Of a stretch of DNA of 64,000 bases, positions 1,980-17,608 are shown in pieces. The DNA lies in contig QCMN01000003.1 in the NCBI GenBank assembly GCA_003213715.1, forward strand, positions 13,057 to 77,056. The letters are read 5' to 3'. The notes beneath the pieces were generated by a model that did no database searches, had not been told where the DNA came from, and saw only the letters and a list, made by a program, of their open reading frames with translations. This DNA is from Pelagibacteraceae bacterium AG-422-B15 (GTDB taxonomy: Bacteria > Pseudomonadota > Alphaproteobacteria > Pelagibacterales > AG-422-B15). How positions within the stretch are numbered: position 1 is the first letter of the stretch; every line of letters starts with the position of its first letter. The position numbers were made by a program, and so were the translations under genes.

Positions 1980-2893
1980 TGAAAACTTTAACACCTTCAA
2001 TAATGGAATTAACGGATAATTTTTCGATTGAAACCAATTCTATGGATCTATCTATATCACACGAGATAATAAATGATGAACTAAAATTAAAAATCACTGC
2101 GAATTATTCACAAATACCTTCACGAATAAAATTAATAAGCAGTAATAGAAGCAACTTTAAAATTATTGCTGATATATATTTAAACGAGAATGCTACTTTA
2201 GAGATTATTGACGAAAATGATTATATAATTGATACATCTTTTATTTTTAAATCATTTTTAGCTTCCCGCTCAGTACTTGAATTATACAGATTTAATAAGT
2301 TTCAATCCGATACTAACAACTCATTTGTTCATACTTGTAATATGTCAAATGGTTCAATTTTTAAAGATTTTAATTTTACAAACGGTTCAGATTTTACAAA
2401 TAACGAGACTAAGATTAATTTAAATGAAGAAAATGCAAAGTATGTTGGCAGTGGCGTTGTCATGTCCAATTCATCAAAATGTGAAAATAATTTAGAAATA
2501 AGACACTTAAGTAAATCTGCGGTATCAGATTGTTCATTTAAAGCCGTAACTCGTGGATCATCCAATGTTTCGTTTAAAGGAAAAGTATTTGTTGATGAAA
2601 ATTGCTCAAATACACAATCTAACCAAATTAGTAAAGGTTTGTTAATTGACGAGGAATCTAAAATTAATCTTACACCAATACTTGAAATAAATAATGATGA
2701 TGTAGTTTGTTCTCATGGTGCGGCTTCAGGAAAAGCTGATGAGGAAGTACTATTCTATTTAGCTTCTAGAGGAATTTCAAAGAGTGAAGCTGAAAGAATA
2801 TACATACAGGGCTTTTTATCAGAGTTTATAGAAAAGATTGAAGATGCAGAAATGCAAGCTAAAGGCCAAAATTTTATCAACGAGAATTGTTAA
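1979..2893 (+). CDS. sufD: Fe-S cluster assembly protein SufD (short, divergent N-terminus)
   Basis: C-terminal PILEINNDDVVCSHGA and LFYLASRGI motifs; lies between sufC and sufS. Confidence 0.9.
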   Translation: MKTLTPSIMELTDNFSIETNSMDLSISHEIINDELKLKITANYSQIPSRIKLISSNRSNFKIIADIYLNENATLEIIDENDYIIDTSFIFKSFLASRSVLELYRFNKFQSDTNNSFVHTCNMSNGSIFKDFNFTNGSDFTNNETKINLNEENAKYVGSGVVMSNSSKCENNLEIRHLSKSAVSDCSFKAVTRGSSNVSFKGKVFVDENCSNTQSNQISKGLLIDEESKINLTPILEINNDDVVCSHGAASGKADEEVLFYLASRGISKSEAERIYIQGFLSEFIEKIEDAEMQAKGQNFINENC

Positions 2894-2894
2894 C

Positions 2895-4127
2895 ATGGAT
2901 GACTCTAAAACTTTAAATTTAAATGTTAGAAAAGATTTTCCAATTCTTTCTAAAAAGATATTGGAAAAAAAAGATCTTATTTATTTTGACACTGCAGCTT
3001 CTGCTCAAAAACCAAATACAGTTATTGATGAAACAAATGATTTCTATAAAAATCACTATTCTAATGTTAGCAGGGGAGTTCATACACTATCTGTTGAATC
3101 AACATTTAGATATGAGGACGCTAGAAAAAAAGTTCAAAAATTCTTAAATGCAAGGTCTGAAAATGAAATTATTTTCACAAAAAGTGCCACAGAAGGAATA
3201 AATTTAGTCGCTCAAACTTTCTATGAAAAGTTTATGCAAAAGGGAGATGAGGTAATTTTATCTCTAATCGAGCACCACTCAAATTTAATACCTTGGTTTT
3301 TTTTAAGAGACAAGTATGGCGTTGTACTAAAGTTTGCAAATATTCAACCATCAGGAGAAATTGATATTGATCATTTTAATAGTCTATTCACAAATAAAAC
3401 AAAAATTGTATCTTTGACGCATCTTTCAAACGTTTTTGGTACTGAATTAAATGAAAAGGCTATAAGTATCTGTAAAGATAAAAATGTTCCCATTCTCCTT
3501 GATGGTTGTCAATCAGCTGCTCATTTGAAAATTGATGTTCAAAAACTAGGTTGTGATTTTTTTGTTTTCTCTGGACACAAAACTTATGGTCCTGCTGGTA
3601 TTGGAGTTTTATATGGAACTGAAAATCTTTTATCAGAAATGCCCCCCTATCAAGGTGGAGGAGGAATGATTGGAGACGTGAGTCTAGAAGGTGCAAGTTA
3701 CGCAGAATTACCAGCGAAATATGAAGCAGGAACTCCTCCATTAGTCGAAGCGCACGGATTGGGTATAGCAATTGATTACATGAATAAAATTGGACTCGAT
3801 AATATTATTGAGCATGAAAATGAAATTACTAAATATGCGTTCAATAAATTAAACGAAATTGATTTTATCGAAATTCACGGTGGAGATAATAAAAGGAACT
3901 CTATCATATCCTTTAATATTAAAAATGTTCACTCCCACGAAGTATCTTCGTTCTTAGATGTTGAAGGAATAGCAATTAGAGCAGGTCATCACTGTTGCCA
4001 GCCTTTAATGAAACATCTTGGTGTCAATTCAACGGCCAGATTATCTTTTGGTGTGTATAATTCATTAGAAGAAGTTGATAAATTTGTTATTGCGCTACAT
4101 AAATGTAAGGAGTTTTTTAATAAATGA
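2895..4127 (+). CDS. sufS: Cysteine desulfurase SufS
   Basis: YFDTAASAQKP, FSGHK (PLP lysine) and RAGHHCCQP motifs. ATG at 2895 follows the sufD stop. Confidence 0.96.
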   Translation: MDDSKTLNLNVRKDFPILSKKILEKKDLIYFDTAASAQKPNTVIDETNDFYKNHYSNVSRGVHTLSVESTFRYEDARKKVQKFLNARSENEIIFTKSATEGINLVAQTFYEKFMQKGDEVILSLIEHHSNLIPWFFLRDKYGVVLKFANIQPSGEIDIDHFNSLFTNKTKIVSLTHLSNVFGTELNEKAISICKDKNVPILLDGCQSAAHLKIDVQKLGCDFFVFSGHKTYGPAGIGVLYGTENLLSEMPPYQGGGGMIGDVSLEGASYAELPAKYEAGTPPLVEAHGLGIAIDYMNKIGLDNIIEHENEITKYAFNKLNEIDFIEIHGGDNKRNSIISFNIKNVHSHEVSSFLDVEGIAIRAGHHCCQPLMKHLGVNSTARLSFGVYNSLEEVDKFVIALHKCKEFFNK

Positions 4128-4558
4128 ATAATTTAATAAATGATCTTTACCAAGAAATAATTTTAGATCACGGACGTGAACCAAGAAATTTTGGTGAATG
4201 TGAACCTCATAATAAAAGTGCCGATGGTCATAATCCATTGTGCGGTGACAATTTAAAGCTTACTTTTCTTCTTAATGATCAAAATATAATAGAAGACATT
4301 AAATTCACAGGTGAGGGGTGTGCCATATCACTTGCTTCTGCATCATTAATGACAGAAAAATTAAAAGGTAAAAAAATTGAAGTCGCTCAGGAAATATTTA
4401 AGGATTTTACAAATCTTGTTTCAGGTTCAGATGAAGACCTAAAAGTTTTAAATGAGGAAGATTCACTCTATGCCTTAAAGGGAGTAGGTAGATTTCCAAT
4501 GAGGGTAAAGTGCGCAACAATGGCATGGCATGCTTTTAACCAGGCTTTAAAAGATTAA
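4124..4558 (+). CDS. sufU: SufU-type sulfur transfer/scaffold protein
   Basis: [20 protein letters not shown] and RVKCATMAW motifs. Confidence 0.93.
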
Positions 4559-4560
4559 TT

Positions 4561-5142
4561 ATGAGACTATATCCTGTATATCTTGCACTGCTTGTATTAT
4601 TTATTGTTTTGCAACTTATTTATGGAAACCGGTCTTTTGCCGATATAAACTTAGAGGAGTACGATATGTCAAAAGTAGAAGTAATGGATACACCTTTCTG
4701 GTGTTCTGCCACGCCTGAAGAAAGACAGGAAGCTATTAATAACCTTACTGAAGAACAGAGAATTGTTGCTTTAGAGAATGGAACAGAGAGGCCATTTTTT
4801 AATGAATATTGGAATAGTAAAGATGTTGGGATTTATGTTGATGTAATTTCAGGAGAACCCTTATTCTCCTCTTTAGATAAATTTGATTCAGGAACAGGTT
4901 GGCCGAGTTTTGATAAGCCAATAAATGGAATAGAAATTGTAGAAGTTGTTGATAAATCCCATGGAATGGTTCGCACAGAGGTAAGAAGTCAATATGGCGA
5001 CGCACACCTTGGCCATTTATTTGATGATGGACCCACTGAAACTGGATTAAGATATTGTATTAATTCGGCTTCCTTAAGATTTGTTCCTCTAGAAAAGTTA
5101 AGTGAAGAAGGCTATGAGGATTTTGTAGAATTATTTAACTAA
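4561..5142 (+). CDS. msrB: Peptide-methionine (R)-S-oxide reductase MsrB, possible N-terminal signal peptide; alternative start at 4666
   Basis: [27 protein letters not shown] and RYCINSASL motifs. Lacks the Zn-binding CxxC pairs. Confidence 0.95.
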
Positions 5143-5451
5143 ATGGAAAAAGTAGAAGATCAAAAAGTTATAGATGCATTAAAGACTGTATTTGACCCTG
5201 AAATTCCAGTTGATTTGTACGAATTAGGTCTAATTTACAAATGTGAGGTTACTCCTGATAATGATGTTATTATTCAAATGACATTAACTACACCAAATTG
5301 TCCTGTAGCAGATGAAATGCCAAAAAAAGTAAAAGAAGCTGTCGACGCTGTACCTGGGGTAAAACATGTTGCAGTTGATCTTGTATGGGATCCACCATGG
5401 GATATGTCTCGCATGTCGGATGTTGCGAGATTAGAACTAGACATGATGTAA
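5143..5451 (+). CDS. sufT: DUF59/SufT-PaaD family Fe-S assembly protein
   Basis: DPEIPVDLYELGLIY, MTLTTPNCP and VWDPPW motifs. Confidence 0.9.
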   Translation: MEKVEDQKVIDALKTVFDPEIPVDLYELGLIYKCEVTPDNDVIIQMTLTTPNCPVADEMPKKVKEAVDAVPGVKHVAVDLVWDPPWDMSRMSDVARLELDMM

Positions 5452-5518
5452 GATATCCACTTGAAATACAAAAATACCTATATATTTTAGATAATAATCA
5501 TATATAAACTCAATTTAA

Positions 5519-5594
5519 GAGCCCGTAGCTCAGTTGGTAGAGCACTCCCCTTTTAAGGGAGTTGTCCTCGGTTCGAACCCGAGCGGGCTCGCCA
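5519..5594 (+). tRNA. tRNA-Lys (anticodon TTT), encoded CCA, discriminator G
   Basis: Acceptor stem GAGCCCG/CGGGCTC; D-arm GCTCAGTTGGTAGAGC; anticodon arm CTCCC-CTTTTAA-GGGAG; T-arm CTCGG-TTCGAAC-CCGAG; 76 nt. Confidence 0.97.
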
Positions 5595-5595
5595 C
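5550..5595 (+). repeat. att core copy 1 (3' half of intact tRNA-Lys)
   Basis: CTTTTAAGGGAGTTGTCCTCGGTTCGAACCCGAGCGGGCTC-G-CCAC. Confidence 0.95.
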
Positions 5596-5639
5596 GGTTT
5601 TGAACGATTTTCAATTAGTTATTACTTTCGAAACAAACA

Positions 5640-5661
5640 GTGCAGTCAATGTGCAGTCATT
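5640..5661 (+). repeat. Tandem 11-bp direct repeats, candidate integrase arm-type sites (left)
   Basis: GTGCAGTCAAT followed by GTGCAGTCATT; same motif and orientation at 6709-6750. Confidence 0.7.
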
Positions 5662-5675
5662 AGAACGGTAAAAAC

Positions 5676-6644
5676 TTAATTCATTGCCAACATATTTAGC
5701 ACCTTAAGCTGAGAATTGATTTCTGCTATTTGAGCTTTCAATAAATCATTTTCATTCTGAATCGCTTCATTCTTTGCCATCACTGCATCAATTTTATTCT
5801 CTAGTAATAAGTTGTTATCTTTAGCTTCTCTCACTGGTTTTGGAGCACCGAATTTAAATGTTATGCCAGCTTTAAGAGTTGCGTCGTCGCCTTCGCCGTA
5901 AACGACTGATGCAGCTCCTATATTGAATGATGCTTTTTGAAACATCTCAGGCATAGAGTCAACAAATGAGTAATTGGCAAAATCAAAACCACATCCACCA
6001 GAAATTGCCGATGCACTGTCATGAAATCCAGTTCCAAGTCCACACGTATAGCCTGCGCCTTCAGCTCCTGTTGGAAGTGAAGCAAATGCAGCGCCTAATG
6101 CAATAGAGCTGTCTATGCTTCCCATTACGTCCTCACCATCTATTAGTAAATTTGTACCAGATGGAATGTTGATATCAATTCTATTACCAGAGGAATTTGT
6201 TGCATATAAATGCTGCCGGCCACCTATTTCTTGTGTAACAAGAGAGTTTTCTCCAATATGCAAAGCTCCATTACCATCAACTCTCACCATTTTGTTAATA
6301 GGTATATTTTGATAAGGTGCTAAGCTATATATTGAACCTCCTGATGATCTTATTGCGTCAGACCAACTATCAGAATTAAAGTCATATACCTTAATTTCGG
6401 ATGTTAGACCTGCTCCTTGATGAATATAGAATTTATTTTCATATGCATCAAAATAACTGTTATCTGTTGCTATTCCTTGATCAAGCGTGATCGATGTAAC
6501 GACTGTTTCTGAGCCACTTGATTGGTCTATTTTAAGTAATTGATAAGTATTGCCCTCTGAATTTTTAAACATCAAAAGATTATCTGCAGAGAAAGCAAAG
6601 GTTGTTAATAAAAATGAATAAAATAATATTAGAATATATTTCAT
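5676..6644 (-). CDS. Secreted/outer-membrane protein with YadA-anchor-like segment and C-terminal coiled coil
   Basis: Signal peptide (..TTFAFSA). SIALGAAFASLP...GLGTGFHDSASAISGG resembles the YadA anchor. Heptad-rich tail. SD AAGGAG upstream. Confidence 0.7.
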   Translation of the reverse strand: MKYILILFYSFLLTTFAFSADNLLMFKNSEGNTYQLLKIDQSSGSETVVTSITLDQGIATDNSYFDAYENKFYIHQGAGLTSEIKVYDFNSDSWSDAIRSSGGSIYSLAPYQNIPINKMVRVDGNGALHIGENSLVTQEIGGRQHLYATNSSGNRIDINIPSGTNLLIDGEDVMGSIDSSIALGAAFASLPTGAEGAGYTCGLGTGFHDSASAISGGCGFDFANYSFVDSMPEMFQKASFNIGAASVVYGEGDDATLKAGITFKFGAPKPVREAKDNNLLLENKIDAVMAKNEAIQNENDLLKAQIAEINSQLKVLNMLAMN

Positions 6645-6708
6645 ATAGTCTCCTTTAAAAATTATTATTTAATTTTAACAAGTTTAATAAAAAAAAAGAT
6701 GCCAATTT

Positions 6709-6750
6709 TTGTAGTCAATTTGCAGTCATTTTTAATGAAAATCAGTCATT
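6709..6750 (+). repeat. Tandem 11-bp direct repeats, candidate integrase arm-type sites (right)
   Basis: TTGTAGTCAAT (6709-6719), TTGCAGTCATT (6720-6730), AATCAGTCATT (6740-6750). Confidence 0.7.
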
Positions 6751-6798
6751 GACTTCTAATTAATTAGAACTAACTGTAGATAATTAACAATCTTGAGG

Positions 6799-6844
6799 CT
6801 TTTAAGGGAGTTGTCCTCGGTTCGAACCCGAGCGGGCTCACCAC
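6799..6844 (+). repeat. att core copy 2 (displaced 3' half of tRNA-Lys ending ACCA)
   Basis: 41 bp identical to 5550-5590, then A instead of G, then CCAC. Confidence 0.95.
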
Positions 6845-6852
6845 TTAATTAT

Positions 6853-7017
6853 ATGAAAAAAAAATTTTATCACAAGCTTGGCCCAGTACCTACAGAGGAA
6901 GATCTCAAAAATCCAAAAAAACTAAATCCAAATAAAGCAAGAAACACAGTAATCATATGGTATTCGTTTGTTGCTATTTCTATTATACTTTACTTTGTAG
7001 TAACAAAATTGTTCTAA
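6853..7017 (+). CDS. Small single-TM hypothetical protein (54 aa)
   Basis: ATG at 6853 (MKKKFYHKLGP...); hydrophobic C-terminus; stop lies 8 bp before the next gene. Confidence 0.6.
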   Translation: MKKKFYHKLGPVPTEEDLKNPKKLNPNKARNTVIIWYSFVAISIILYFVVTKLF

Positions 7018-7025
7018 TATGAACA

Positions 7026-7865
7026 ATGAAACAATATCATTTAAATAAACTATCTCCAGAACTGGGGGCAGAAATTGGTGGAATTGATTTGTCAAAAGAT
7101 TTTAATGAAGAAATTCAAAATAAAATTTATGACGACTTAATAAATTACAAAGTTTTATTTTTTAGGGAGCAAAATATTACTCCGCAATTTCACGTTGAAT
7201 TTGCAAAAAGCTTTGGTTCGATTGAAGAGCCGCACCCCGTTTATCCTCATATAGAGGGATTTCCTGAAATTGTTTTACTAGAAAATGATAAGGATAACCC
7301 ACCGGATACAGATGAATGGCATACTGATGTAACGTTTAAAAATGATCCACCTTTTGCATCTGTTTTGTACAGTAAAATAATTCCAGAAGTTGGAGGTGAT
7401 ACATTATGGAGTTCATTATCAAAAATATATGATGCGCTTCCCCATGAATTGAAATCGCAAATTGAAAACTTAAGGGCAATTCATGACATGGGAAGTTTTC
7501 GAAATAATTATATGAACGATGATAATAAAGAGTCTTCAATTAAATTAAATAAAGGGTTTGAAGAATTTGGAAATGCAGTTCATTCAGTTGTAAAGGTTCA
7601 TCCAATTTCCAGTGAGAAGTTTCTCTATATAAACCCTAGTTTTACTTCTCAGATCGTTGGTATGACAACAACAGACTCTAATAACTTACTCACATATTTA
7701 TTTAATTTTATGTGCAAACCAGAATTTCAAATAAGATTTAAGTGGACGCCAAATACATTAGTTATTTGGGATAATCGTTGCACAATGCATTATGCTATTG
7801 GTGACTATATGCCAAATAAACGTGTTATGCATAGAGTTACAGTCTTAAATGATCGCAGAGATTAA
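7026..7865 (+). CDS. tauD: TauD/TfdA family 2-oxoglutarate/Fe(II) dioxygenase
   Basis: WHTDVTF (HxD), GGDT and WDNRCTMH motifs. Substrate is not established. Confidence 0.85.
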   Translation: MKQYHLNKLSPELGAEIGGIDLSKDFNEEIQNKIYDDLINYKVLFFREQNITPQFHVEFAKSFGSIEEPHPVYPHIEGFPEIVLLENDKDNPPDTDEWHTDVTFKNDPPFASVLYSKIIPEVGGDTLWSSLSKIYDALPHELKSQIENLRAIHDMGSFRNNYMNDDNKESSIKLNKGFEEFGNAVHSVVKVHPISSEKFLYINPSFTSQIVGMTTTDSNNLLTYLFNFMCKPEFQIRFKWTPNTLVIWDNRCTMHYAIGDYMPNKRVMHRVTVLNDRRD

Positions 7866-9068: not shown

Positions 9069-9205
9069 AAAACCCCATCTGCAGAGATGGGGTTTATTTT
9101 AGTTTTATTTCAAACATCTACGTCTTGTAGATTTTAGAATATTTTTGAAATGGTTGTGGACACCACCCCTTACAATGTTGGTGGCGTCAACTTTTTAACC
9201 TCCAC
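9066..9205 (-). ncRNA. Candidate structured small RNA (three hairpins)
   Basis: Minus-strand stems GACGCCACC/GGTGGTGTC (G-U only on minus), ATTTCAAA..ATCTAC/GTAGAT..TTTGAAAT, then the terminator with T-tract. No convincing ORF. Confidence 0.45.
9070..9095. terminator. Bidirectional intrinsic terminator
   Basis: AAACCCCATCT-GCAG-AGATGGGGTTT, with an A-run before and a T-rich run after. Confidence 0.85.
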
Positions 9206-9380
9206 ATTATCATCAACAAATAATATCAAGCACTCTCAAAATGTGAATTAAAAATGAAAAAAGCCTGAATACAGAAAGTATTTAAGCTTTTCATGATGAT
9301 AACGTGGATTGATGATCCTTCTGGATAATTCTTTATAAGAATCAATTAATATATTTGAAAAATATATTTACTATTAAAAA

Positions 9381-9554
9381 ATGACCCAGCAAAACTGCCA
9401 ATGGTGTAATACATCAATAATTCCAATTGATGTACATGGTCACTATCAATGCCCAAATTGCAAGATTAACATCGATCCTTGTTGCTCAGGTGAACAGAAT
9501 GATGATTATGATTCAACTTTGCAGTCTTGTAACACCAAACGCTTCGACGAATAA
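9381..9554 (+). CDS. Cys/His-rich zinc-ribbon-like microprotein (57 aa), not in ORF track
   Basis: MTQQNCQWCNTSIIPIDVHGHYQCPNCKINIDPCCSGEQNDDYDSTLQSCNTKRFDE; CxxC...HGH..CxxC...CC pattern. Confidence 0.75.
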   Translation: MTQQNCQWCNTSIIPIDVHGHYQCPNCKINIDPCCSGEQNDDYDSTLQSCNTKRFDE

Positions 9555-9559
9555 TTAAA

Positions 9560-9673
9560 TCAAAAAAAATACAAAAACAACATTAAAACCAAAAAGACAA
9601 TAAGTGCCATTAATGGAAAGGTGAGTATTCTATAAATAATTTGTAAGAACTGTTTAAAGCTAAACTGCTCCAT
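9560..9673 (-). CDS. Small membrane peptide (37 aa), not in ORF track
   Basis: MEQFSFKQFLQIIYRILTFPLMALIVFLVLMLFLYFF; starts 8 bp after the SDR stop. Confidence 0.45.
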   Translation of the reverse strand: MEQFSFKQFLQIIYRILTFPLMALIVFLVLMLFLYFF

Positions 9674-9681
9674 AGGATTAT

Positions 9682-10545
9682 TTAACTTAGAATAATGTCT
9701 TCGCCATCATCTTTGTTTACAAAGAAATCTGGAAATGGTTCAGCATCAGGAGTTGCAAGATATTCAGATAAATCCGTCTTACCAGCTTTCATCATCGTAC
9801 TGTCATCAACACACATGTTTCCAGTAAATTTTTTGGAATCCTGAGTAAGTATTACATATGCAGCATCGCCCATGATAGCAGGTGTTCTACATTTGCTTTT
9901 TCCTTGATCATCCATTGATGCGGCTAAAATATTGTTTACTGCGGCTGTATCAATCATAGTTCTTGGCCATAATGAGTTTACTGCAATGCCTGATGACTTT
10001 AATTCTTCTGACATTCCAAGTGTACACATACTCATTCCATATTTTGCCATAGTATAAGCTACATGCGGACTAAACCACTGGCTTTCCATATTTAAAGGTG
10101 GCCCTAGGTTTAATATGTGAGGATTGTTTCCTTTTTTTAAATGAGGAATACATGACTTTGAAACAAGAAACGTTCCTCTTGTATTGATGTTGTGCATTAA
10201 ATCATATCTTTTCATTTCTGTATTAACAGTAGGAGTTAAGCTAATTGCACTTGCATTGTTTACACAAATATCAATACCACCGAATGTTTCTACGGTTTTT
10301 TCAACAGCAGCAAGTACTTGATCTTCAAATCTTATATCTGTTTTTATACCAATTGCATTACCACCAGCCTTAATTAAATCTTCTGCAGCAGTAAAAATAG
10401 TACCAGGCAATGTTGGTTGCGGCTCAGTGGTTTTTGCAATGATAGCAATATTAGCACCATCTTTTGCAGCACGCTCAGCAATTGCGTATCCAATGCCTCT
10501 TGTGGCGCCAGTTATAAATAATGTTTTTCCTTTGAGATCAGTCAT
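9682..10545 (-). CDS. Short-chain dehydrogenase (HSDL2-like)
   Basis: ITGATRGIG, NNASAI, YTMAK and NSLWPRT motifs. Confidence 0.9.
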   Translation of the reverse strand: MTDLKGKTLFITGATRGIGYAIAERAAKDGANIAIIAKTTEPQPTLPGTIFTAAEDLIKAGGNAIGIKTDIRFEDQVLAAVEKTVETFGGIDICVNNASAISLTPTVNTEMKRYDLMHNINTRGTFLVSKSCIPHLKKGNNPHILNLGPPLNMESQWFSPHVAYTMAKYGMSMCTLGMSEELKSSGIAVNSLWPRTMIDTAAVNNILAASMDDQGKSKCRTPAIMGDAAYVILTQDSKKFTGNMCVDDSTMMKAGKTDLSEYLATPDAEPFPDFFVNKDDGEDIILS

Positions 10546-10572
10546 ATTAACTCCTTAAAAAGGTATAAAAAT

Positions 10573-10606
10573 TTGTCATAAAAGTTTCACTAAGATAGTC
10601 CATAAT
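10573..10606 (+). promoter_or_regulatory. PHO-box-like site plus -10 element upstream of the small-protein operon
   Basis: TTGTCAT-AAAA-GTTTCAC, 10-bp spacer, then CATAAT. Confidence 0.45.
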
Positions 10607-10628
10607 AATTTTATTTAAAGGAGTAAAT

Positions 10629-10955
10629 ATGGCTAAATTTTATATGATGGCGAAATATACCCCAGAAGCTTTAAAAGGATTTATGAGTAAACCATCAGAT
10701 GACAGAAAGGCGGCTTCGGCTAAATTAGTTGAGTCCGTTGGAGGCAGTCTTTTATCTTTTGACATAGTAAGAGGGGACTATGATCTTGTGATGGTAGTGG
10801 ACGCTATTGATTTTAATGCAGCGGCAGGTGCAAAAATAGCTGTTCAATCCACTGGCATGGTAACTGATGCAGTTATACTGGAAGCAGTAGATATGACGGA
10901 AATTGTTTCTAAAGCAGGAACAGCACTTGGCAACTATACTAAACCAGGAGCATAA
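10629..10955 (+). CDS. GYD domain protein
   Basis: YTPEALKG...R...LVESVGG...GDYD pattern; SD AAGGAG. Confidence 0.85.
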   Translation: MAKFYMMAKYTPEALKGFMSKPSDDRKAASAKLVESVGGSLLSFDIVRGDYDLVMVVDAIDFNAAAGAKIAVQSTGMVTDAVILEAVDMTEIVSKAGTALGNYTKPGA

Positions 10956-10956
10956 A

Positions 10957-11244
10957 ATGAGCACAGTTGTTACTGTTAAATTTTTTCCTAAACCGGAAAT
11001 GGTTCAAGAAATGAATAACTGGTTTAGAGAAAATTTATCCAATACGCAATCATATGAAGGCTGTCAGCTAATTAAAGGTGGGTATAACAAGGACACTCAA
11101 GAGGTTATCCTTTATGAAGTATGGGACAGTGTTGAGGCTCATCAAAAATATGTTAATTGGAGAATTGAGATTGGTGATATTCCAAAACTTGTTGAAATGT
11201 CAACTAAGGAACCTGATATCGTCTATCATGAAGAAATTTATTAA
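10957..11244 (+). CDS. Antibiotic biosynthesis monooxygenase (ABM) family protein
   Basis: TQSYEGC and LYEVWDSVEAHQKYVNWR motifs. ATG at 10957 with SD AGGAG. Confidence 0.85.
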   Translation: MSTVVTVKFFPKPEMVQEMNNWFRENLSNTQSYEGCQLIKGGYNKDTQEVILYEVWDSVEAHQKYVNWRIEIGDIPKLVEMSTKEPDIVYHEEIY

Positions 11245-11268
11245 ACAAAAAAATTAAAAAGGAAAAAA

Positions 11269-11649
11269 ATGGAAGCAAAAGAAGTAGTACAAAGAGGTTA
11301 TGACTTATTCGGATCTGGAGATATGGAAACATTCTTTGGTGAAATAGTTCATGACGAGATAACATGGACGTTTCCAGGAGAAGAAGGAAAACATCCATTA
11401 GCGGGTGTACATAAAGGAAAAGAAAATTTCATCGCGAATATGTCAAAAATTCCAGAGTATTGGGATAATTTTATGGTTACACCTCAAGCAATGATTAGTG
11501 AAGGTAACAAAGTATTCGCACTAGTAAAAGGAACTGCTGATGGTATGGATACTATGTTTGGTCATTACTTTGAAGTTGAAAACAATCAAATGAAAGTAAT
11601 GATGACTTTTGATGATACGCTTACAGCATTCAATGCAATGAAAGAATAG
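11269..11649 (+). CDS. SnoaL-like/NTF2-fold protein
   Basis: VVQRGYDLFGSGD, W..PG..HPLAG...GKE and ISEGNKV motifs. Confidence 0.85.
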   Translation: MEAKEVVQRGYDLFGSGDMETFFGEIVHDEITWTFPGEEGKHPLAGVHKGKENFIANMSKIPEYWDNFMVTPQAMISEGNKVFALVKGTADGMDTMFGHYFEVENNQMKVMMTFDDTLTAFNAMKE

Positions 11650-11658
11650 GGAGTAATT

Positions 11659-11943
11659 ATGAATAATTATATTGTAACACATACGTTCAAGTCTAAAGAG
11701 GCAAAAGAAGCCTTTGCCAAGGCTGGTGAAGGAATTTCTGAGGAAGAACAAATACAAAGCATGACAGGAGAGAATGCTGCGTGCCAAATGAGTTGGGAAA
11801 CTCCTGGAGATTCACTGACAATGTTTTGTTACTGGAAAGCAAAAAGTCCAGATGATGTTAACTCAATGCTTGCTGACTATAATGAGTTCTTTGAGCCACA
11901 TCAATTTGAATTAACAAATGAACCAATAAAGTTCACAGCATAA
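11659..11943 (+). CDS. Small hypothetical protein, probable dimeric alpha-beta barrel fold
   Basis: YIVTHTF...FCYWKAKSPDDV pattern; SD GGGAG. Confidence 0.7.
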   Translation: MNNYIVTHTFKSKEAKEAFAKAGEGISEEEQIQSMTGENAACQMSWETPGDSLTMFCYWKAKSPDDVNSMLADYNEFFEPHQFELTNEPIKFTA

Positions 11944-11959
11944 AATTAGGAGAAGTATT

Positions 11960-12253
11960 ATGTATGTAATGTTGACGCAAAAACTTTCTAAAGGTTTTGA
12001 GTCTTGGAAAGATATGGTTCATGAAAATGAACATAAACTAAAGGGCTTTAAAGGCAGAATTATATTTGCTGGATCTCATGCAGAAGATGATAATTCGATG
12101 GTAGTTATTATGCATTATGACGATAAGGAAGGACTTATGGCTTTTAAAAATGATGAAGAATTAACTAAAGCCAGACAAGAGGCAGGGGCCTTAACAGACA
12201 CAACTGTGATGACAGTTTTGACTGATGAAGCCATCTTAAATTTTCCAAGCTGA
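11960..12253 (+). CDS. DUF3764-like small protein
   Basis: FESWK and ARQEAGA..DTTV patterns; SD AGGAG. Confidence 0.65.
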   Translation: MYVMLTQKLSKGFESWKDMVHENEHKLKGFKGRIIFAGSHAEDDNSMVVIMHYDDKEGLMAFKNDEELTKARQEAGALTDTTVMTVLTDEAILNFPS

Positions 12254-12256
12254 ATT

Positions 12257-12484
12257 TTAATTGGCTGCAAGTTGAAAGGAATTATCTTCTCTGCAGCCAG
12301 TCCCAATCGATAAACCAATTTCTTTTATTTCGCTTTCTGAATATTTAGCCTCATCTAAATTATTTAAAACAGCCAAATTACGATCAATACAACTTTTGTG
12401 CGGTGAAGGAACAAGAGATGTAAAAAAAATGACAAAAACTAAAAGTGCGAATGCTAATGGAACTAAGCCGTATCTATTAATCAT
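12257..12484 (-). CDS. Hypothetical protein with N-terminal TM segment
   Basis: ATGA overlap with the DUF1192 stop; two Cys residues. Confidence 0.55.
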   Translation of the reverse strand: MINRYGLVPLAFALLVFVIFFTSLVPSPHKSCIDRNLAVLNNLDEAKYSESEIKEIGLSIGTGCREDNSFQLAAN

Positions 12485-12660
12485 TTTTTGAATAAACTCT
12501 CAGCATTTAGACGATCTTTTTCTTTAGATGAAATATAGTTTTCAGCTCTCTTAATTTCTACATTAAGTTCTATAATATATTCTTTAAGTTCTTCTATACT
12601 CAAAGTGTCAAAATCAATTTCTTTTGGCTTAATAATTGGCTCTAAATCATCTGTATCCAT
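12481..12660 (-). CDS. DUF1192 family protein
   Basis: MDTDDLEP...LSIEELKEYI..L..EIKR...AESLFK; start placed at the ATG at 12660. Confidence 0.85.
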   Translation of the reverse strand: MDTDDLEPIIKPKEIDFDTLSIEELKEYIIELNVEIKRAENYISSKEKDRLNAESLFKK

Positions 12661-12705
12661 CAAAGTTGAGTGTTTCATTTTTTTGGCAACTTGTTAAGAT
12701 TAAAT

Positions 12706-13809
12706 ATGGCAGAAGAAGTTCGTTTTTTTGATAACCGACAGAGATACCTATTGTTTGTTACAACCACAAATGAAAAAGCGGTAATAGCTGAAAAATTATC
12801 CCATTTGATTAACGAATTGAAACCAGTAAAACCTGCCCTTAAAATATTCGATGCTGGAGTAGGTGATGGAGCAGTGTTAATGAATGTGCTTCGAATTGCC
12901 CATCAAAAATTTCCAACTGTTCCTTTTTATGTTTCTTGTAAAGATGTAAGCATGGAAGATGCAAGAATAACCATTGAGAAATTAGCTGACAGATTTGTTG
13001 AGCATCCAAACATGGTTTTTACAATATCTAATTTACACTACTCTGAAGCTGGGTATCTCAAATCAAATAACGAGTCTAAGCAACAAAATATGAATTGGAA
13101 CAGTATTGCTCTAGATGGAAACTTTTCATTTGGATTTTATGAACAGTTAAGACAGTTGGGCCCACTTTTAAAAGAAAATTGGAGAGTTGAAGAAAATAAA
13201 CAGGGAAATACAACTTATGAAAACCCATCTGTAATTTGCATATATAGAAAAGACCATGAATTCACGCTTGATCAGATAATTCCAACTAAAAAAGAATCTA
13301 TTAACGAATTTGACTTAGTAATTGTCTCACAAGCATATCGTTCACGAGCAAGTGTTGAAAAAAAAGTTAATAATGTAATTAAGCCTATGGTTAATTTACT
13401 CGCCCCAAATGGAAAAATGGTTGCTTTTCACTCTTACGGAAATGATCCTGGTCTCAATGCAATTAATCAACTATGGCCAGATGAAAATCCATTTCCAAAT
13501 AAAGGTCATGACATTATTCAGTACATGAAAAATAATTTAGACAGTGAATTCAATAGCAAAATTCATTTCAGAGAACCTGAAATATTTGAATACAAACTAA
13601 GGTCACAGCCAAATGAGATAAACAGTGGCATTGCCACATCATTAGTATTTTCTGCATGGAATGCTTGTACATATGTTGCCCAAATAAGTGATCAAATGGT
13701 TAAGGAAAAGGAAGCAGATCAAAGTTATATTAAGTGCATTGAGGACATAATTCGTGATCATGACGGATTATGGTTTTATGACGAAATGCTTGTGGCTGAC
13801 AGAAAATAA
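12706..13809 (+). CDS. Conserved SAM-methyltransferase-like protein
   Basis: RFFDNRQRYLLFV and IFDAGVGDG (motif I-like). ATG at 12706. Confidence 0.75.
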   Translation: MAEEVRFFDNRQRYLLFVTTTNEKAVIAEKLSHLINELKPVKPALKIFDAGVGDGAVLMNVLRIAHQKFPTVPFYVSCKDVSMEDARITIEKLADRFVEHPNMVFTISNLHYSEAGYLKSNNESKQQNMNWNSIALDGNFSFGFYEQLRQLGPLLKENWRVEENKQGNTTYENPSVICIYRKDHEFTLDQIIPTKKESINEFDLVIVSQAYRSRASVEKKVNNVIKPMVNLLAPNGKMVAFHSYGNDPGLNAINQLWPDENPFPNKGHDIIQYMKNNLDSEFNSKIHFREPEIFEYKLRSQPNEINSGIATSLVFSAWNACTYVAQISDQMVKEKEADQSYIKCIEDIIRDHDGLWFYDEMLVADRK

Positions 13810-13846
13810 TTATTGAATTTCTCACAAGCAATTTATATCAAATAGT

Positions 13847-14365
13847 ATGTTATCATCTTTAATAGTAGGTGCAGGGTGCTTTTGGGGCGTTGAAGTCTTA
13901 TATGAACAAATGCCTGGTGTTATTGATGCAACCTCAGGTTATTCTGGTGGTCATTTAGATAATCCTAGATATGAAGACGTTTTAACTGGTGAGACAGGTC
14001 ATGTTGAAGTAGTCAAGATTGATTATGATACTAGCGAAGTTACTTTTAATGAATTAATTGATACATTTTTTATCATTCATGATCCCACAACCTTAAATCG
14101 TCAAGGTCCTGATATTGGTGAGCAATATAAATCTATACTTTTTTACAATAGCGAAGATGAAAAAGAAATTATTGAGAGTAAAATAAAAAAAATTGATTTA
14201 TCAGGCAAGTTTGAAAACCCAATAGTTACAGAAATTAGAGAAACAACAGAGTTTTATCCTGCAGAAGACTACCATCAAGATTATGCAGTAAAAACAGGCA
14301 AACTATGCTACCAGCAACTTTATGTTATGTATAATTATTCACCGATACCCATCTCAACACCCTAA
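13847..14365 (+). CDS. msrA: Peptide-methionine (S)-S-oxide reductase MsrA
   Basis: GCFWG, HDPTTLNRQGPD and FYPAEDYHQ motifs. Confidence 0.96.
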   Translation: MLSSLIVGAGCFWGVEVLYEQMPGVIDATSGYSGGHLDNPRYEDVLTGETGHVEVVKIDYDTSEVTFNELIDTFFIIHDPTTLNRQGPDIGEQYKSILFYNSEDEKEIIESKIKKIDLSGKFENPIVTEIRETTEFYPAEDYHQDYAVKTGKLCYQQLYVMYNYSPIPISTP

Positions 14366-14366
14366 A

Positions 14367-15251
14367 CTATTTTGATGAAAAAGTAGGCAGTTGAGGATTA
14401 CTTACTGTTGGAAGTACATACCTGCTTTTTGCAATATCTAAACAGTTTTCATTGTTGTGATTATAATAATTTGAACTTTTGAAATCTAAATGTTTCGCTT
14501 TATCATAAGTTTTATTAGATTGTACGCTGTACATTATATCCCCAGGTATTGATAGGTGCCCTCCAATGCCATCGTTGATCGTGCCTTCATCTTTAAAAAC
14601 TAGATGATCTTCTGCACACTGTGGTACGGCCCCCAAAACATGAAGAATTTCATGAAGAGCAGCTTTAGCAGTTTCATTAAATTCAGGTTTAAAACCACCA
14701 TTGTTTTCAATACATGAGCCACTTCTTTTTCCTGGGTAATAAAGAGCTGCCGTGTTGGCTGTTACACCCTCTGTTGCATAGCTTGGAAGTTGAGAAGACG
14801 CACAAACATCTCTGTTAGAGCCGCCATAGATGATGAAATAAACTTTTTTTGGATCATTAAAACCAAATCGACTTATTGCGGGTTGTAATACATTGACTGC
14901 CTGAATTCCATGTTTTGATATTTCATCATCATTTATGTCAAGTCTCAGAAAAGTAATGTCTATTTTATTATCATCTTTCCGATCAAATTTAAGATTCTGG
15001 CCATCTGCAAATAATCTATCTTTAGTTTTTGAATTAAACCATTTATCGATTTGATACATTAACATGCTTATTTTGCTATCAAGATCGTAGTCTTTATCAA
15101 CACCATCTTTTGGTAAAACATACATAACATGAATATTATAACCATCATCAACATCAGGAAGATCAGCGAAGTTTCTTCCTGGTTTTTCATCAGAAAACAC
15201 AGCTGAAGCTAAAAAAAAACTTATTATAATATAGCTAATAAATATACGCAT
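14367..15251 (-). CDS. Secreted putative zinc metallopeptidase
   Basis: Signal peptide and HEILHVLG (HExxH) motif. Confidence 0.7.
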   Translation of the reverse strand: MRIFISYIIISFFLASAVFSDEKPGRNFADLPDVDDGYNIHVMYVLPKDGVDKDYDLDSKISMLMYQIDKWFNSKTKDRLFADGQNLKFDRKDDNKIDITFLRLDINDDEISKHGIQAVNVLQPAISRFGFNDPKKVYFIIYGGSNRDVCASSQLPSYATEGVTANTAALYYPGKRSGSCIENNGGFKPEFNETAKAALHEILHVLGAVPQCAEDHLVFKDEGTINDGIGGHLSIPGDIMYSVQSNKTYDKAKHLDFKSSNYYNHNNENCLDIAKSRYVLPTVSNPQLPTFSSK

Positions 15252-15280
15252 ATTTTTAAATCTGATATTGTTTTTGTTTA

Positions 15281-16351: not shown

Positions 16352-16396
16352 TTTTTATTATTGAAAATTATTCAAACATTATATTAAATTTAGCAA

Positions 16397-17581: not shown

Positions 17582-17600
17582 CCGTGTTTCCACGGCTAAG
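17577..17600. terminator. Hairpin between convergent genes
   Basis: CTTAGCCGTG-TTTC-CACGGCTAAG. Confidence 0.65.
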
Positions 17601-17608
17601 AAAACTTA

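What the first reader, a model, noticed from the sequence alone, without database searches (positions are those of the whole stretch)
5550..6844. Integrase-less 1.25-kb single-gene cassette at tRNA-Lys that keeps a full attP architecture
Seen: the tRNA 3' half is duplicated (45/46 bp), and identity begins exactly at the 7-nt anticodon loop CTTTTAA. Pairs of co-oriented 11-bp repeats (consensus near TGCAGTCA[A/T]T) lie inside both ends, at 5640-5661 and 6709-6750. Only one cargo gene lies between them, with no recombinase or remnant. Established: tyrosine integrases often cross over in tRNA anticodon loops and bind tandem arm-type sites on both sides of the attP core. Inference: excision would give a 1249-bp circle with core plus both arms, so this looks like a non-autonomous gene cassette moved by an integrase in trans. 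That could be a minimal gene-shuffling system in a streamlined genome rather than a decayed prophage.
Basis: partly seen in the sequence, partly recalled or inferred. Interest (0 to 1): 0.85.

Follow-up and report, generated by a model that had tools for sequence, protein, structure and literature searches.

The report
Integrase-less gene cassette at tRNA-Lys
A 1.25-kb single-gene unit beside a SAR11 tRNA-Lys gene belongs to a family of tiny, recombinase-less cassettes that stack at tRNA genes and keep paired protein-binding repeats at both ends, suggesting a borrowed-enzyme way of swapping cell-surface genes in a streamlined genome.

Summary
The tRNA-Lys 3' part (5550-5595) recurs at 6799-6844 (45/46), starting at the anticodon loop. 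Tandem 11-mers lie inside both ends, and that repeat pair occurs nowhere else in the 1.09-Mb genome.

Comparison with 46 same-genus SAR11 genomes turns one locus into a family:
- Empty sites are exact.
- Occupied sites hold one to three tandem cassettes of 0.2-3.6 kb, at tRNA-Lys in 4 of 35 genomes and at tRNA-Met in 14 of 38. The window's own genome has a further one at tRNA-Ser.
- None of the 28 cassettes examined encodes a recombinase.
- The 11-mer pairs sit at fixed distances from the crossover. They fall into at least five sequence classes, and the class co-varies between the left and right arm of a cassette while the surrounding non-coding backbone stays conserved.
- One relative carries a 9-kb element inserted in a tRNA-Thr anticodon loop. 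It has the same arm layout and encodes an integrase with an arm-binding domain.

The window's cargo is a small, trimeric-autotransporter-like surface protein found only in these cassettes.

Best reading: non-autonomous attP-bearing cassettes moved by an integrase supplied in trans. That integrase and the excised circle were not found. This is a new variant of known kinds (CIME, additive island, tycheposon array).

The parts
5519..5594 (+). tRNA-Lys(ttt). Its part from the anticodon loop onwards is the proximal att core (attL side).
   Evidence: ARAGORN. The same tRNA is present in 35 of 47 genus genomes.
5550..5556 (+). Anticodon loop CTTTTAA, the inferred 7-nt crossover (overlap) region.
   Evidence: Identity between the two copies begins exactly here in 5 of 5 tRNA-Lys cassettes. 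It begins at the corresponding loop at tRNA-Met (CTCATAA) and tRNA-Ser (TTGGAAA). The integrase-bearing G036 element duplicates only the tRNA-Thr loop.
5550..5595 (+). Proximal copy of the 46-nt direct repeat.
   Evidence: family D1.
5626..5633 (.). Conserved palindrome TTTCGAAA just before the left arm pair; a possible accessory-protein site (inference).
   Evidence: Present before the left arm pair in most cassettes, whatever the arm class.
5641..5661 (+). Left (P'-side) tandem 11-mer pair, class GCAGTCA.
   Evidence: It starts 46 nt after the core. In cassettes with a clear pair the left pair starts +42 to +56 after the core in all but one.
5676..6644 (-). Cargo gene, 322 aa. It has a hydrophobic N-terminus, a variable N-terminal part, a conserved trimeric-autotransporter-like anchor (helix 173-188 plus four strands 199-263) and a C-terminal coiled coil (280-321).
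6690..6709 (.). Conserved backbone block (A-run, GATGCCAATTTTT) on the cargo side of the right arm pair.
   Evidence: Near-invariant in 5 tRNA-Lys right arms while the arm 22-mer next to it varies.
6710..6730 (+). Right (P-side) tandem 11-mer pair, class GCAGTCA.
   Evidence: It starts 137 nt before the cassette end; 15 of 24 cassettes have theirs at -136 to -141.
6731..6798 (.). Conserved right-arm backbone between the arm pair and the core. It includes ATCAGTCATTGACTTC and TTAGAACTAACTGTAG.
   Evidence: conserved across arm classes.
6799..6844 (+). Distal copy of the 46-nt repeat (attR side), a tRNA-Lys 3' fragment.
   Evidence: D1. The flank beyond it equals the flank that follows the intact tRNA at empty sites.

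Best explanation
Window 5596-6844 is an integrated, non-autonomous integrative cassette. It consists of one cargo gene plus a complete attP-type site.

How it got there (inferred). It entered as a circle by tyrosine-integrase recombination whose strand exchange lies in the 7-nt anticodon loop of tRNA-Lys. The cassette carries the rest of the tRNA, so the gene is restored at attL and the old 3' part is left at attR.

The repeats (inferred). The tandem 11-mer pairs inside both ends are arm-type sites for the N-terminal arm-binding domain of an integrase. The cassette does not encode that integrase, so it must come in trans from a rare or transient element.

The family (shown). The cassette belongs to a genus-wide family in a SAR11 lineage. 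Members stack in tandem at tRNA-Lys, tRNA-Met and tRNA-Ser. They come in at least five arm-specificity classes and mostly carry cell-surface functions: a trimeric-autotransporter-like protein with a variable head, an O-acyltransferase, an FkbM/RfbT-like methyltransferase and small secreted proteins.

Shown: the anatomy, empty sites, arrays, arm covariation, restriction of the arm repeats to cassettes where searched (the window's class in its own genome, the GCGGGAT class in the 60 family genomes), and an integrase-bearing relative with the same layout. Inferred: binding of the repeats by an integrase, present-day mobility, and the circle.
For: 1. Anatomy:.

2. Empty sites. The intact tRNA-Lys is followed directly by the window's attR flank in many same-genus genomes; the flank is near-identical in L008, L009, L010, L012, L013, L014, L018 and L019.

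3. Census of 47 genus genomes. The Lys core is present in 35, with 2 or more copies in 4 (G000, G035 with 3, G032, G005). The Met core is present in 38, with 2 or more copies in 14.

4. Twenty-four cassettes of 193-3577 bp were catalogued. Three more came from metagenome contigs and one more from tRNA-Ser(gga) in the window's own genome. None holds a recombinase ORF.

5. Arm pairs are at fixed positions.

6. Arm class matches between left and right. By eye, 17 of 23 cassettes longer than 400 bp have recognisable pairs of the same class at both ends. In one of these 17 (L035_c2) the first right-hand unit is of another class. Six lack one or both pairs. None has two clear pairs of different class. 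The left 22-mer scores a mean of 14.4/22 against its own right arm and 12.0 against other cassettes' right arms; 0 of 20,000 permutations reach this (19 cassettes used, 4 dropped, and some cassettes are orthologous). In arrays the left arm fits its own right arm better than the upstream neighbour's in 5 of 5 cases.

7. The arm 22-mers are replaced in concert inside an otherwise conserved non-coding backbone.

8. GCGGGAT-class pairs occur at 11 places in 7 of 60 family genomes, all inside Lys/Met cassettes, and 0 times in the reversed control.

9. The G036 element is 9.15 kb and sits in the anticodon loop of tRNA-Thr(ggt). An exact empty site exists in G065, whose flank is 100% identical. It has tandem 11-mers (GGTGTAAAT) inside both ends. 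It encodes an integrase with Arm-DNA-bind_3 (2.3e-16) plus Phage_integrase domains, and an AEP primase-helicase.

10. Distal cores stay identical to the tRNA in most cassettes, while cassette bodies differ by 6-30% between genomes.

11. The cargo family was found only inside these cassettes: 7 of 401 order genomes, all in this genus.
Against: - No cognate integrase was found. The window's genome has only XerC- and XerD-like recombinases. In 47 genus genomes the only extra integrases are the G036 element, which has other arms and another tRNA, and fragments in G036 and G010.
- G036-type integrases were found in 1 of 401 order genomes.
- No viral contig holds even 23 nt of the Lys or Met core. 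No isolated phage matched.
- The metagenome scan returned only three more integrase-less cassettes.
- No circle junction was seen.
- Six of 23 cassettes lack one or both arm pairs.
- Loss by homologous recombination between the 45-nt cores, and gain by homologous recombination in the flanks, would give the same presence/absence pattern.
- Cassettes are related and genomes are kin, so the permutation count overstates independence.
Confidence: 0.6

Rival explanations
1. Fossil att scars. The cassettes were laid down by past integrations of larger integrative elements or prophages and have lost everything but one gene. Today they are immobile as units. They spread or vanish only by homologous recombination, either in the conserved flanks after DNA uptake or between the 45-nt cores.
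For: Almost no integrase is present in 47 genus and 401 order genomes. No phage or viral partner was found. Some cassettes have decayed or missing arms (L035_c1, L139_c1, L043_c2, L045_c1, L140_c1). CIMEs are defined as arising this way (PMC5704250, passages read).
Against: No integrase or other backbone remnant occurs in any of 28 cassettes. The uniform single-gene format and fixed arm positions are not what independent random deletions give. Arm 22-mers change in concert at both ends inside a conserved backbone, which points to selection on the repeats. Distal cores remain identical to the tRNA although they are not part of a gene.
Confidence: 0.27
2. The tandem 11-mers are not integrase arm sites. 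They bind some other protein, for example a transcription regulator of the cargo, or a replication initiator if the excised circle replicates (iteron-like).
For: The right pair lies upstream of the cargo start codon. 11-bp tandem repeats are also typical of iterons and operators (general knowledge). The G036 element also encodes a primase-helicase.
Against: Pair positions are fixed relative to the att cores, not to the genes. Cassettes whose cargo lies on the other strand keep the same layout. Pairs sit at both ends, next to the att sites, in the G036 element too, and far from its primase gene. The cassettes encode no DNA-binding protein.
Confidence: 0.06
3. The host XerC/XerD pair, the only tyrosine recombinases in the genome, moves the cassettes, as with Xer-exploiting elements.
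For: XerC- and XerD-like genes are present in nearly all genus genomes, so the enzyme would always be at hand.
Against: The site is a tRNA anticodon stem-loop with flanking direct-repeat arms. It is not a dif-like pair of inverted 11-mers around a 6-8-nt spacer (general knowledge of dif; anatomy). Five arm classes cannot all match one enzyme pair, and Xer proteins have no arm-binding domain (one search shows only Xer-type full-length matches).
Confidence: 0.04
4. Assembly artefact of single-cell or metagenome assemblies (chimeric joins at a repeated tRNA fragment).
For: Most genomes are fragmented single-cell or binned assemblies.
Against: The same architecture recurs in many independent genomes and in metagenome contigs from other records. 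Short contigs from four public runs cover parts of the cassette and its junction regions; none spans the whole stretch.
Confidence: 0.02

Closest known systems
CIME (cis-mobilizable element) and site-specific accretion at tRNA genes (Streptococcus ICESt1 family). Definition read in PMC5704250.
   Same: Bounded by attL and attR, with no integration or transfer genes, and sitting in tandem with like elements at the 3' part of a tRNA gene.
   Different: CIMEs are described as decayed ICEs or IMEs that are mobilised in cis after an ICE integrates beside them. Here no ICE, conjugation genes or decay remnants were found. The units are 0.2-1.6 kb with one gene in most cases, share a uniform layout, and fall into several arm-specificity classes.
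Additive flexible genomic islands and tRNA-fragment repeats in streamlined plankton (Methylopumilus tRNA-Lys island, PMC10872708, passages; SAR11 islands with a partial tRNA repeat, PMC11796062, passages).
   Same: Variable numbers of gene blocks separated by repeats of a tRNA 3' fragment, in genomes with almost no mobile-element genes.
   Different: The passages I read report the repeats and the variable content. They do not report arm-type repeat pairs, their left/right covariation, an anticodon-loop crossover or a cassette-specific cargo family. I could not see the supplementary figures.
Tycheposons of Prochlorococcus (preprint 10.1101/2020.12.28.424599, passages).
   Same: Integration at tRNA genes, tandem elements separated by partial tRNAs, and remnants in islands. 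The G036 element (tyrosine recombinase plus primase-helicase) resembles the autonomous form.
   Different: The preprint passages I read screen for elements by their integrase and other mobility genes. The window's unit has none and is far smaller (the Methylophilaceae paper, passages, gives 4-200 kb for tycheposons). The preprint text does not mention SAR11 (0 occurrences).
Integron gene cassettes.
   Same: Arrays of mostly single-gene, recombinase-less cassettes, each carrying its own recombination site and inserted at one chromosomal site by a tyrosine recombinase acting in trans.
   Different: There is no attC hairpin site, no IntI/attI/Pc platform and no recombinase in the genome besides the Xer pair. 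The site here is a tRNA anticodon stem-loop with double-stranded arm-type repeats. Integron features are from general knowledge.
Temperate pelagiphages and their tRNA att sites (10.1101/410191; PMC8477408).
   Same: SAR11 tRNA genes are the attB sites, cores are 11-46 bp, and tRNA-Met is used by prophage PNP1. These phages are a plausible source of trans-acting integrases.
   Different: No phage sequence matched these cores or arms. The sites named in the passages I read of these papers are tRNA-Cys, Leu, Arg, Asn and Met; tRNA-Lys is not among them, and the full list of the eight HTVC010P-type sites is in a supplementary table I could not see.

Membership tests
tRNA-integrating tyrosine-recombinase element (genomic island or prophage with attL/attR) | Element flanked by a direct repeat of part of the target tRNA, with the tRNA gene kept intact | tested here: met
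   46-nt repeat, 45/46 identical; the tRNA is called intact by ARAGORN.
tRNA-integrating tyrosine-recombinase element (genomic island or prophage with attL/attR) | Precise empty site in relatives | tested here: met
   Thirty-one of the 35 genus genomes with the Lys core have a single copy. Several of these have the window's attR flank directly after the tRNA.
tRNA-integrating tyrosine-recombinase element (genomic island or prophage with attL/attR) | Encodes its own integrase | tested here: not met
   There is one 322-aa ORF with no recombinase family match, and no recombinase ORF in 28 cassettes.
attP-type site of an arm-binding integrase | Arm-type repeats on both sides of the core, distinct from the core sequence | tested here: met
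   Tandem 11-mer pairs at fixed distances on both sides, with the class matching left and right.
attP-type site of an arm-binding integrase | The repeats are bound by the integrase N-terminal domain | not testable with these tools
   Only indirect evidence: the G036 element with the same layout encodes an integrase with PF13356.
CIME (cis-mobilizable element) | [quoted passage not shown] | tested here: met
   definition from PMC5704250.
CIME (cis-mobilizable element) | Derived by decay of an ICE or IME and mobilised in cis by an ICE that integrates next to it | tested here: inconclusive
   No remnants and no ICE or IME in the genus genomes searched. Absence in incomplete genomes does not exclude a past donor.
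Integron cassette | attC recombination site, and an IntI/attI/Pc platform at the head of the array | tested here: not met
   The boundaries are tRNA 3' fragments. The genome holds only Xer-like tyrosine recombinases, and integron-integrase models score far below their cut-offs.
Tycheposon | Hallmark genes (deep-branching tyrosine recombinase, replication module) within the element | tested here: not met
   The window cassette has none. The G036 element has an integrase and an AEP primase-helicase, but it was not compared with tycheposon proteins.
Trimeric autotransporter adhesin (the cargo) | YadA-type membrane anchor: a helix followed by four beta strands | tested here: met
   The family profile hits the YadA anchor 2lme (E 1e-3) and 9gh4 'cell surface protein' (5e-9). 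The AF2 model (pLDDT 81) has helix 173-188 plus four strands. Foldseek matches the Hia and AtaA transmembrane domains at TMt 0.54-0.81, with E only 4e-3 to 1e-2. The single-sequence Pfam scan found no YadA anchor.
Trimeric autotransporter adhesin (the cargo) | Anchor at the extreme C-terminus; the protein forms a trimer | tested here: not met
   A roughly 45-residue helix (280-321) follows the last strand. Trimer formation was not tested.

The most novel reading that the evidence does not exclude
This SAR11 lineage may run a tRNA-anchored analogue of an integron. Arrays of one-gene cassettes are inserted in anticodon loops. Each cassette carries a full double-stranded attP whose 22-nt arm 'address' exists in at least five interchangeable classes. 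The cassettes would be serviced by matching arm-binding integrases that visit only transiently, on satellite-like or phage elements. If so, cells with no resident mobile-element genes could shuffle outer-surface proteins and surface-modifying enzymes, probably under phage pressure. The arm code would decide which visiting integrase can move which cassette.
Probability: 0.35. Interest if true: 0.85.

Novelty: new variant of a known kind. Interest (0 to 1): 0.7.

Why it matters
SAR11 is the most abundant bacterial group in the ocean. Its flexible genome is large, yet it has almost no recognisable mobile elements, and how its islands gain and lose genes is an open question.

These cassettes supply a concrete, testable mechanism:
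- defined att cores in anticodon loops;
- arm repeats whose sequence class predicts the partner integrase;
- a cargo set centred on the cell surface.

They also give search handles (core plus arm patterns) for finding the missing integrases in single-cell, vesicle and virome data. The set of natural arm variants could be used to study how arm-binding domains read DNA.

Tried and rejected
Phage or viral partner
- Exact 41-nt Lys and Met cores, and a 23-nt degenerate core piece, gave 0 viral contigs.
- Arm-pair patterns hit 17 and 35 viral contigs. None of these 52 has a core-like sequence, and most are GC-rich, so they are chance matches.
- blastn of right arm plus core against 50,697 phage records gave only unrelated AT-rich matches or phage tRNA genes.
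- The cargo protein was not found in viral contigs.

Integrase
- PF00589 in the own genome gave the two Xer-like genes only.
- The G036 integrase P0001 has relatives in 1 of 401 order genomes and none in viral contigs. Its best matches to phage integrases are at most 27% identical, and none is a pelagiphage.
- The one metagenome scan (class-A arm plus core) gave 3 contigs, all integrase-less cassettes.
- The genome-contig scan with the cargo C-terminal domain gave 8 loci. Seven lie in single-cell or binned SAR11 genomes that appear to be the ones already seen. One is a 2.1-kb contig binned with a Uhrbacteria MAG, probably a mis-binning.

Reads
- Only Logan contigs of four marine metagenomes were available, and they are short.
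- No 'go back' (circle or tandem) joint was listed.
- One contig in X4 joins 5610 to 6738 (side 30 nt). It may be a cargo-less form, but that is too weak to use.
- The summed contig depth is higher on the flanks than on the cassette. The tool states that such depths cannot be compared, so I draw nothing from it.
- One 255-nt loose end in X2 at 6738 shows a GTCGTCA-type arm joined to the same distal backbone.

Other
- Pfam and PHROGs on the cargo alone gave nothing significant.
- The promoter/terminator scan was not above chance: 8 found against 7.1 expected.
- Base composition: cassette 0.34 GC against 0.33 for the window, so there is no foreign signature.
- The 1.4-kb insert after tRNA-Lys in G030 has no arms and no distal core, so I did not count it as a cassette.
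- The idea that arm classes pair across a junction (right arm of one cassette with left arm of the next) was rejected: 5 of 5 arrays fit better within the cassette.
Fig. S2 of PMC11796062, Table S2 and Fig. S2 of 10.1101/410191, and Table S4 of PMC8477408 may list tRNA sites or cassettes that bear on novelty.

None of the passages read describes arm-bearing integrase-less cassettes in SAR11.
Full report
**1. The observation**

The window is AT-rich (33% GC). It lies in a 1.09-Mb, 36-contig genome that is 85.5% complete. The closest public records are single-cell genomes titled 'uncultured Pelagibacteraceae bacterium', that is, SAR11.

ARAGORN finds one tRNA in the window, tRNA-Lys(ttt) at 5519-5594. 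A 46-nt direct repeat (5550-5595 and 6799-6844, 45/46 identical, spacing 1249) begins at the first base of the anticodon loop CTTTTAA. Inside both ends lie co-oriented tandem 11-mers: TGCAGTCAAT-G-TGCAGTCATT (5641-5661) and TGTAGTCAAT-T-TGCAGTCATT (6710-6730). This pair pattern occurs only at these two places in the whole genome and never in the reversed control.

Between the repeats lies one long ORF, 5676-6644 on the minus strand, 322 aa, with no recombinase signature. The genome's only tyrosine recombinases are an XerD-like and an XerC-like protein on other contigs. One correction applies: the third right-hand copy (6741-6751) belongs to a conserved backbone block, not to the variable arm pair.

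**2. The same locus in relatives**

A search with window 5100-7400 in 60 relatives showed same-genus genomes in which the left and right flanks abut, sharing a single copy of the 46-nt segment. At base level, the intact tRNA is followed at once by the sequence that follows the window's attR copy. Examples are L008, L009, L010, L012, L013, L014, L018 and L019.

Of 47 genus genomes, 35 contain the Lys core. Thirty-one have one copy and four have more: G000 has 2, G035 has 3, and G032 and G005 have 2 each. G035 holds two cassettes in tandem (1420 and 1362 bp). G005 holds one of 1426 bp. G032 holds one of 1152 bp with three unrelated small ORFs.

So empty sites, tandem cassettes and different cargo all exist at this locus.

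**3. Other tRNAs**

Parts of the cassette also matched next to a tRNA-Met(cat) gene. There the repeated segment again starts exactly at the anticodon loop (CTCATAA). Thirty-eight of 47 genomes have the Met core, and 14 have two to four copies. Cassette sizes are 193 to 3577 bp.

I scanned all 23 tRNAs of the window's own genome for extra half-copies. This found one further case, tRNA-Ser(gga) on contig C1. It has a 687-bp cassette whose repeat starts at the loop TTGGAAA and which carries a 139-aa membrane protein.

Three metagenome contigs add three more cassettes. None of the 28 cassettes contains a recombinase ORF.

**4. The arm repeats**

In the 24 cassettes tabulated:
- The best left tandem pair starts 42-56 nt after the core in 19 of the 20 cassettes with a clear pair (7 or more of 11 matches); in L037_c1 it starts at +22.
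- The right pair starts 136-141 nt before the cassette end in 15 of the 24. Among the others with a recognisable right pair it starts 167-175 nt before the end in a second right-arm type.

The repeated word differs between cassettes. By eye I see five classes:
- GCAGTCA (window, L035_c2, L044_c1, L139_c2);
- GTCGTCA/GTCGTGA (L036, L039, L040_c2, L041, L042_c1, L042_c2, L043_c1);
- GTGCGGGAT (L037, L040_c1, L135, L138, L141, and the 193-bp L136);
- GCAGGCC (L044_c2);
- TAGCCCA (the Ser cassette).

Among the 23 cassettes longer than 400 bp:
- 17 have recognisable pairs of the same class at both ends. In one of them, L035_c2, the first right-hand unit is of another class.
- 6 lack one or both pairs (L035_c1, L139_c1, L043_c2, L137_c1, L045_c1, L140_c1).
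- None has two clear pairs of different class.

A blind score gives the same picture. Matching the left 22-mer against right-arm windows averages 14.4 of 22 within a cassette and 12.0 between cassettes, and 0 of 20,000 label permutations reach the observed mean. Nineteen cassettes were used; four without a left pair were dropped. Some cassettes are orthologous, so the test overstates independence. In the five arrays that could be tested, a cassette's left arm fits its own right arm better than its neighbour's. The unit is therefore the cassette, not the junction.

Alignments of five Lys right arms and left arms show the arm 22-mers replaced in concert. The sequence on either side of them is nearly invariant: the A-run/GATGYYAATTTTTG and AAATCAGTCATTGACTTC...ACTGTAG blocks on the right, and CTTTCGAAA and TTAGAAAGGAAAAAAC on the left.

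GCGGGAT-class pairs occur at 11 places in 7 of 60 family genomes, every one inside a Lys or Met cassette. These are the properties expected of protein-binding sites that co-evolve with their binder, placed as the P and P' arms of an attP.

**5. An integrase-bearing relative**

The genus census for PF00589 shows the two Xer-like genes in nearly every genome. Extras occur only in G036 and G010.

The G036 gene encodes a 415-aa protein with an Arm DNA-binding domain (PF13356, 2.3e-16) and the catalytic domain. It lies in a 9.15-kb insertion that also encodes an AEP primase fused to a DUF5906 helicase region.

The insertion has TGGTGTAAAT tandem 11-mers inside both ends. This word is found nowhere else in 401 order genomes.

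The insertion sits in the anticodon loop of tRNA-Thr(ggt). G065 has the intact tRNA with a 100% identical flank, and in G036 only the 7-nt loop is duplicated.

So in this genus an arm-binding integrase is associated with the same geometry: an anticodon-loop crossover and tandem 11-mer pairs in both arms. Its integrase gene occupies the same place and orientation as the cargo gene of the cassettes, namely next to the right arm and reading towards the tRNA. That parallel is my inference.

This integrase has different arms and a different target, so it is a model for the partner, not the partner itself.

**6. The cargo**

The 322-aa protein has 233 relatives in the 90% clusters and 269 in the 50% representatives. 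Nearly all are from marine metagenomes and on short contigs. Residues 117-322 or so are conserved and the N-terminal part is variable.

Evidence for the fold:
- A profile of 69 members hits the PDB chain 9gh4 'cell surface protein' (5e-9) and the YadA membrane anchor 2lme (1e-3).
- The AlphaFold model (mean pLDDT 81.3) has a helix, four strands and then a long C-terminal helix.
- Foldseek aligns the helix-plus-strands part with the Hia and AtaA transmembrane domains, at TM-score up to 0.81 on the target but with E-values only about 4e-3 to 1e-2.
- A few relatives carry YadA head and stalk repeats.

I read it as a small trimeric-autotransporter-like surface protein with an exchangeable head and an unusual helix after the anchor. 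Trimer formation and location were not tested.

In 401 order genomes the conserved domain occurs in 7, all in this genus, and every copy lies in a Lys or Met cassette. Ten of the 16 cassettes whose ORFs I listed carry a member; none of the genomes behind the other eight tabulated cassettes matched.

Other cargo includes a 4HBT thioesterase, an AT3 acyltransferase with an SGNH domain, an FkbM/RfbT-like methyltransferase, and small secreted or membrane proteins without a family. Several of these are surface-modifying functions. It is general knowledge, not tested here, that temperate phages of enteric bacteria carry such genes next to attP.

**7. Mechanism**

Shown:
- the duplication boundaries;
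- exact empty sites;
- tandem stacking;
- arm position, specificity classes and covariation;
- restriction of the arm repeats to cassettes where searched, and of this cargo family to cassettes;
- absence of a recombinase in the cassettes and, Xer apart, in the genome.

Inferred from the established behaviour of tRNA-targeting tyrosine integrases (anticodon-loop sublocation, arm-type and core-type sites; Williams 2002 as cited in PMC8477408, otherwise general knowledge):
- A cassette circle carrying right arm, core and left arm recombines with the tRNA.
- The 7-nt loop is the overlap region, and the anticodon stem offers the inverted core-type sites.
- The cassette's own copy of the tRNA 3' part restores the gene.
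- A later cassette can enter at the tRNA-proximal core and push older ones outward.
- Excision of 5596-6844 would give a 1249-bp circle.

The integrase must come from outside the cassette. Candidates are satellite-like elements such as the G036 one, or temperate pelagiphages. These phages use about half of the SAR11 tRNA genes, including tRNA-Met for PNP1 (PMC8477408, passages read; 10.1101/410191).

The 193-bp cassette in G017 keeps one arm pair and no gene. It shows that the att apparatus can persist without cargo.

**8. What argues against active mobility**

I found no partner. There is no viral contig with even 23 nt of the cores and no phage record. No integrase sits next to these arms in 47 genus, 60 family or 401 order genomes, or in the metagenome scan. 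No circle junction appeared in the contigs of four runs.

Presence or absence can also arise by homologous recombination, which is frequent in SAR11 (general knowledge). A quarter of the cassettes have lost an arm pair. I therefore keep the fossil-scar reading at about one in four.

Three points weigh against the fossil reading:
- the uniform one-gene format;
- the lack of any backbone remnant;
- the concerted arm changes inside a conserved backbone, together with the preservation of distal cores.

**9. Relation to what is known**

By definition the unit fits a CIME: att sites kept, integration genes gone (PMC5704250). However, there is no sign of ICE ancestry or cis-mobilisation.

It fits the 'additive island' pattern described for other streamlined plankton, where tRNA 3' fragments recur between gene blocks (PMC10872708). 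[quoted passage not shown]

Tycheposon arrays are the nearest autonomous analogue. Functionally the arrays work like integron arrays, but the defining integron parts are absent.

In the passages I could read, and in searches, I did not find four things described: the complete two-armed attP on integrase-less single-gene units, the several arm classes that co-vary left and right, the anticodon-loop register shared by four tRNAs, and a surface-protein family confined to such cassettes.

**10. Verdict**

This is a new variant of known kinds. Interest is 0.7.

Noticed in passing
Own genome contig C1:149108-149881 (locus L168), outside the window: A second cassette in the same genome, 687 bp, after tRNA-Ser(gga). 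The repeat starts at the anticodon loop TTGGAAA. The arm word is TTAGCCCA, tandem on the left and a single clear copy on the right. The cargo is a 139-aa membrane protein.
   Followed up: partly
L076 about 9130-18295 (G036:C1): A 9.15-kb element splits tRNA-Thr(ggt) at its anticodon loop without restoring it. It encodes an integrase with an arm-binding domain and an AEP primase-helicase, and has GGTGTAAAT tandem 11-mers at both ends. The empty site is in G065 (L170 1464-1537). The tRNA appears broken in G036.
   Followed up: yes
L136 611-803 (G017:C11): A 193-bp cargo-less mini-cassette at tRNA-Met: one GCGGGAT arm pair plus backbone and a distal core with 1 mismatch.
   Followed up: partly
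L077 3195-9180 (G010:C14): A different island type, about 5.9 kb, on the 5' side of tRNA-Gly(gcc). The tRNA 5' half (34 nt) is duplicated exactly, and there is a 193-aa integrase fragment.
   Followed up: partly
L038 (G030:C2), reverse-complemented positions 1578-2991, as printed: A 1.4-kb insert directly after tRNA-Lys with no arm repeats and no distal core. Its content was not identified.
   Followed up: no
L027-L032 (six genus genomes): A sub-group of the genus has a tRNA-Lys with a different acceptor end (...GGGCATACCA). No cassette was seen at that variant in the six loci examined.
   Followed up: no
L166 (2.1-kb contig titled as a Candidatus Uhrbacteria MAG): It carries a 72%-identical copy of the cargo C-terminal domain. 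This is most likely a SAR11 contig mis-binned into that MAG.
   Followed up: no
window 6875-6848 (minus strand): A promoter-like site (TTGTGA, 16 nt, TATAAT; 10 of 12) in the host flank points into the cassette. The total count of such sites is no higher than in shuffles (8 against 7.1), so I give it no weight.
   Followed up: no
window 2838-5451: Upstream context, named from the ORF translations by recall (no family search was run): a cysteine desulfurase-like gene, an IscU/SufU-like gene, an MsrB-like gene and a small SufT-like gene, ending 67 nt before the tRNA.
   Followed up: no
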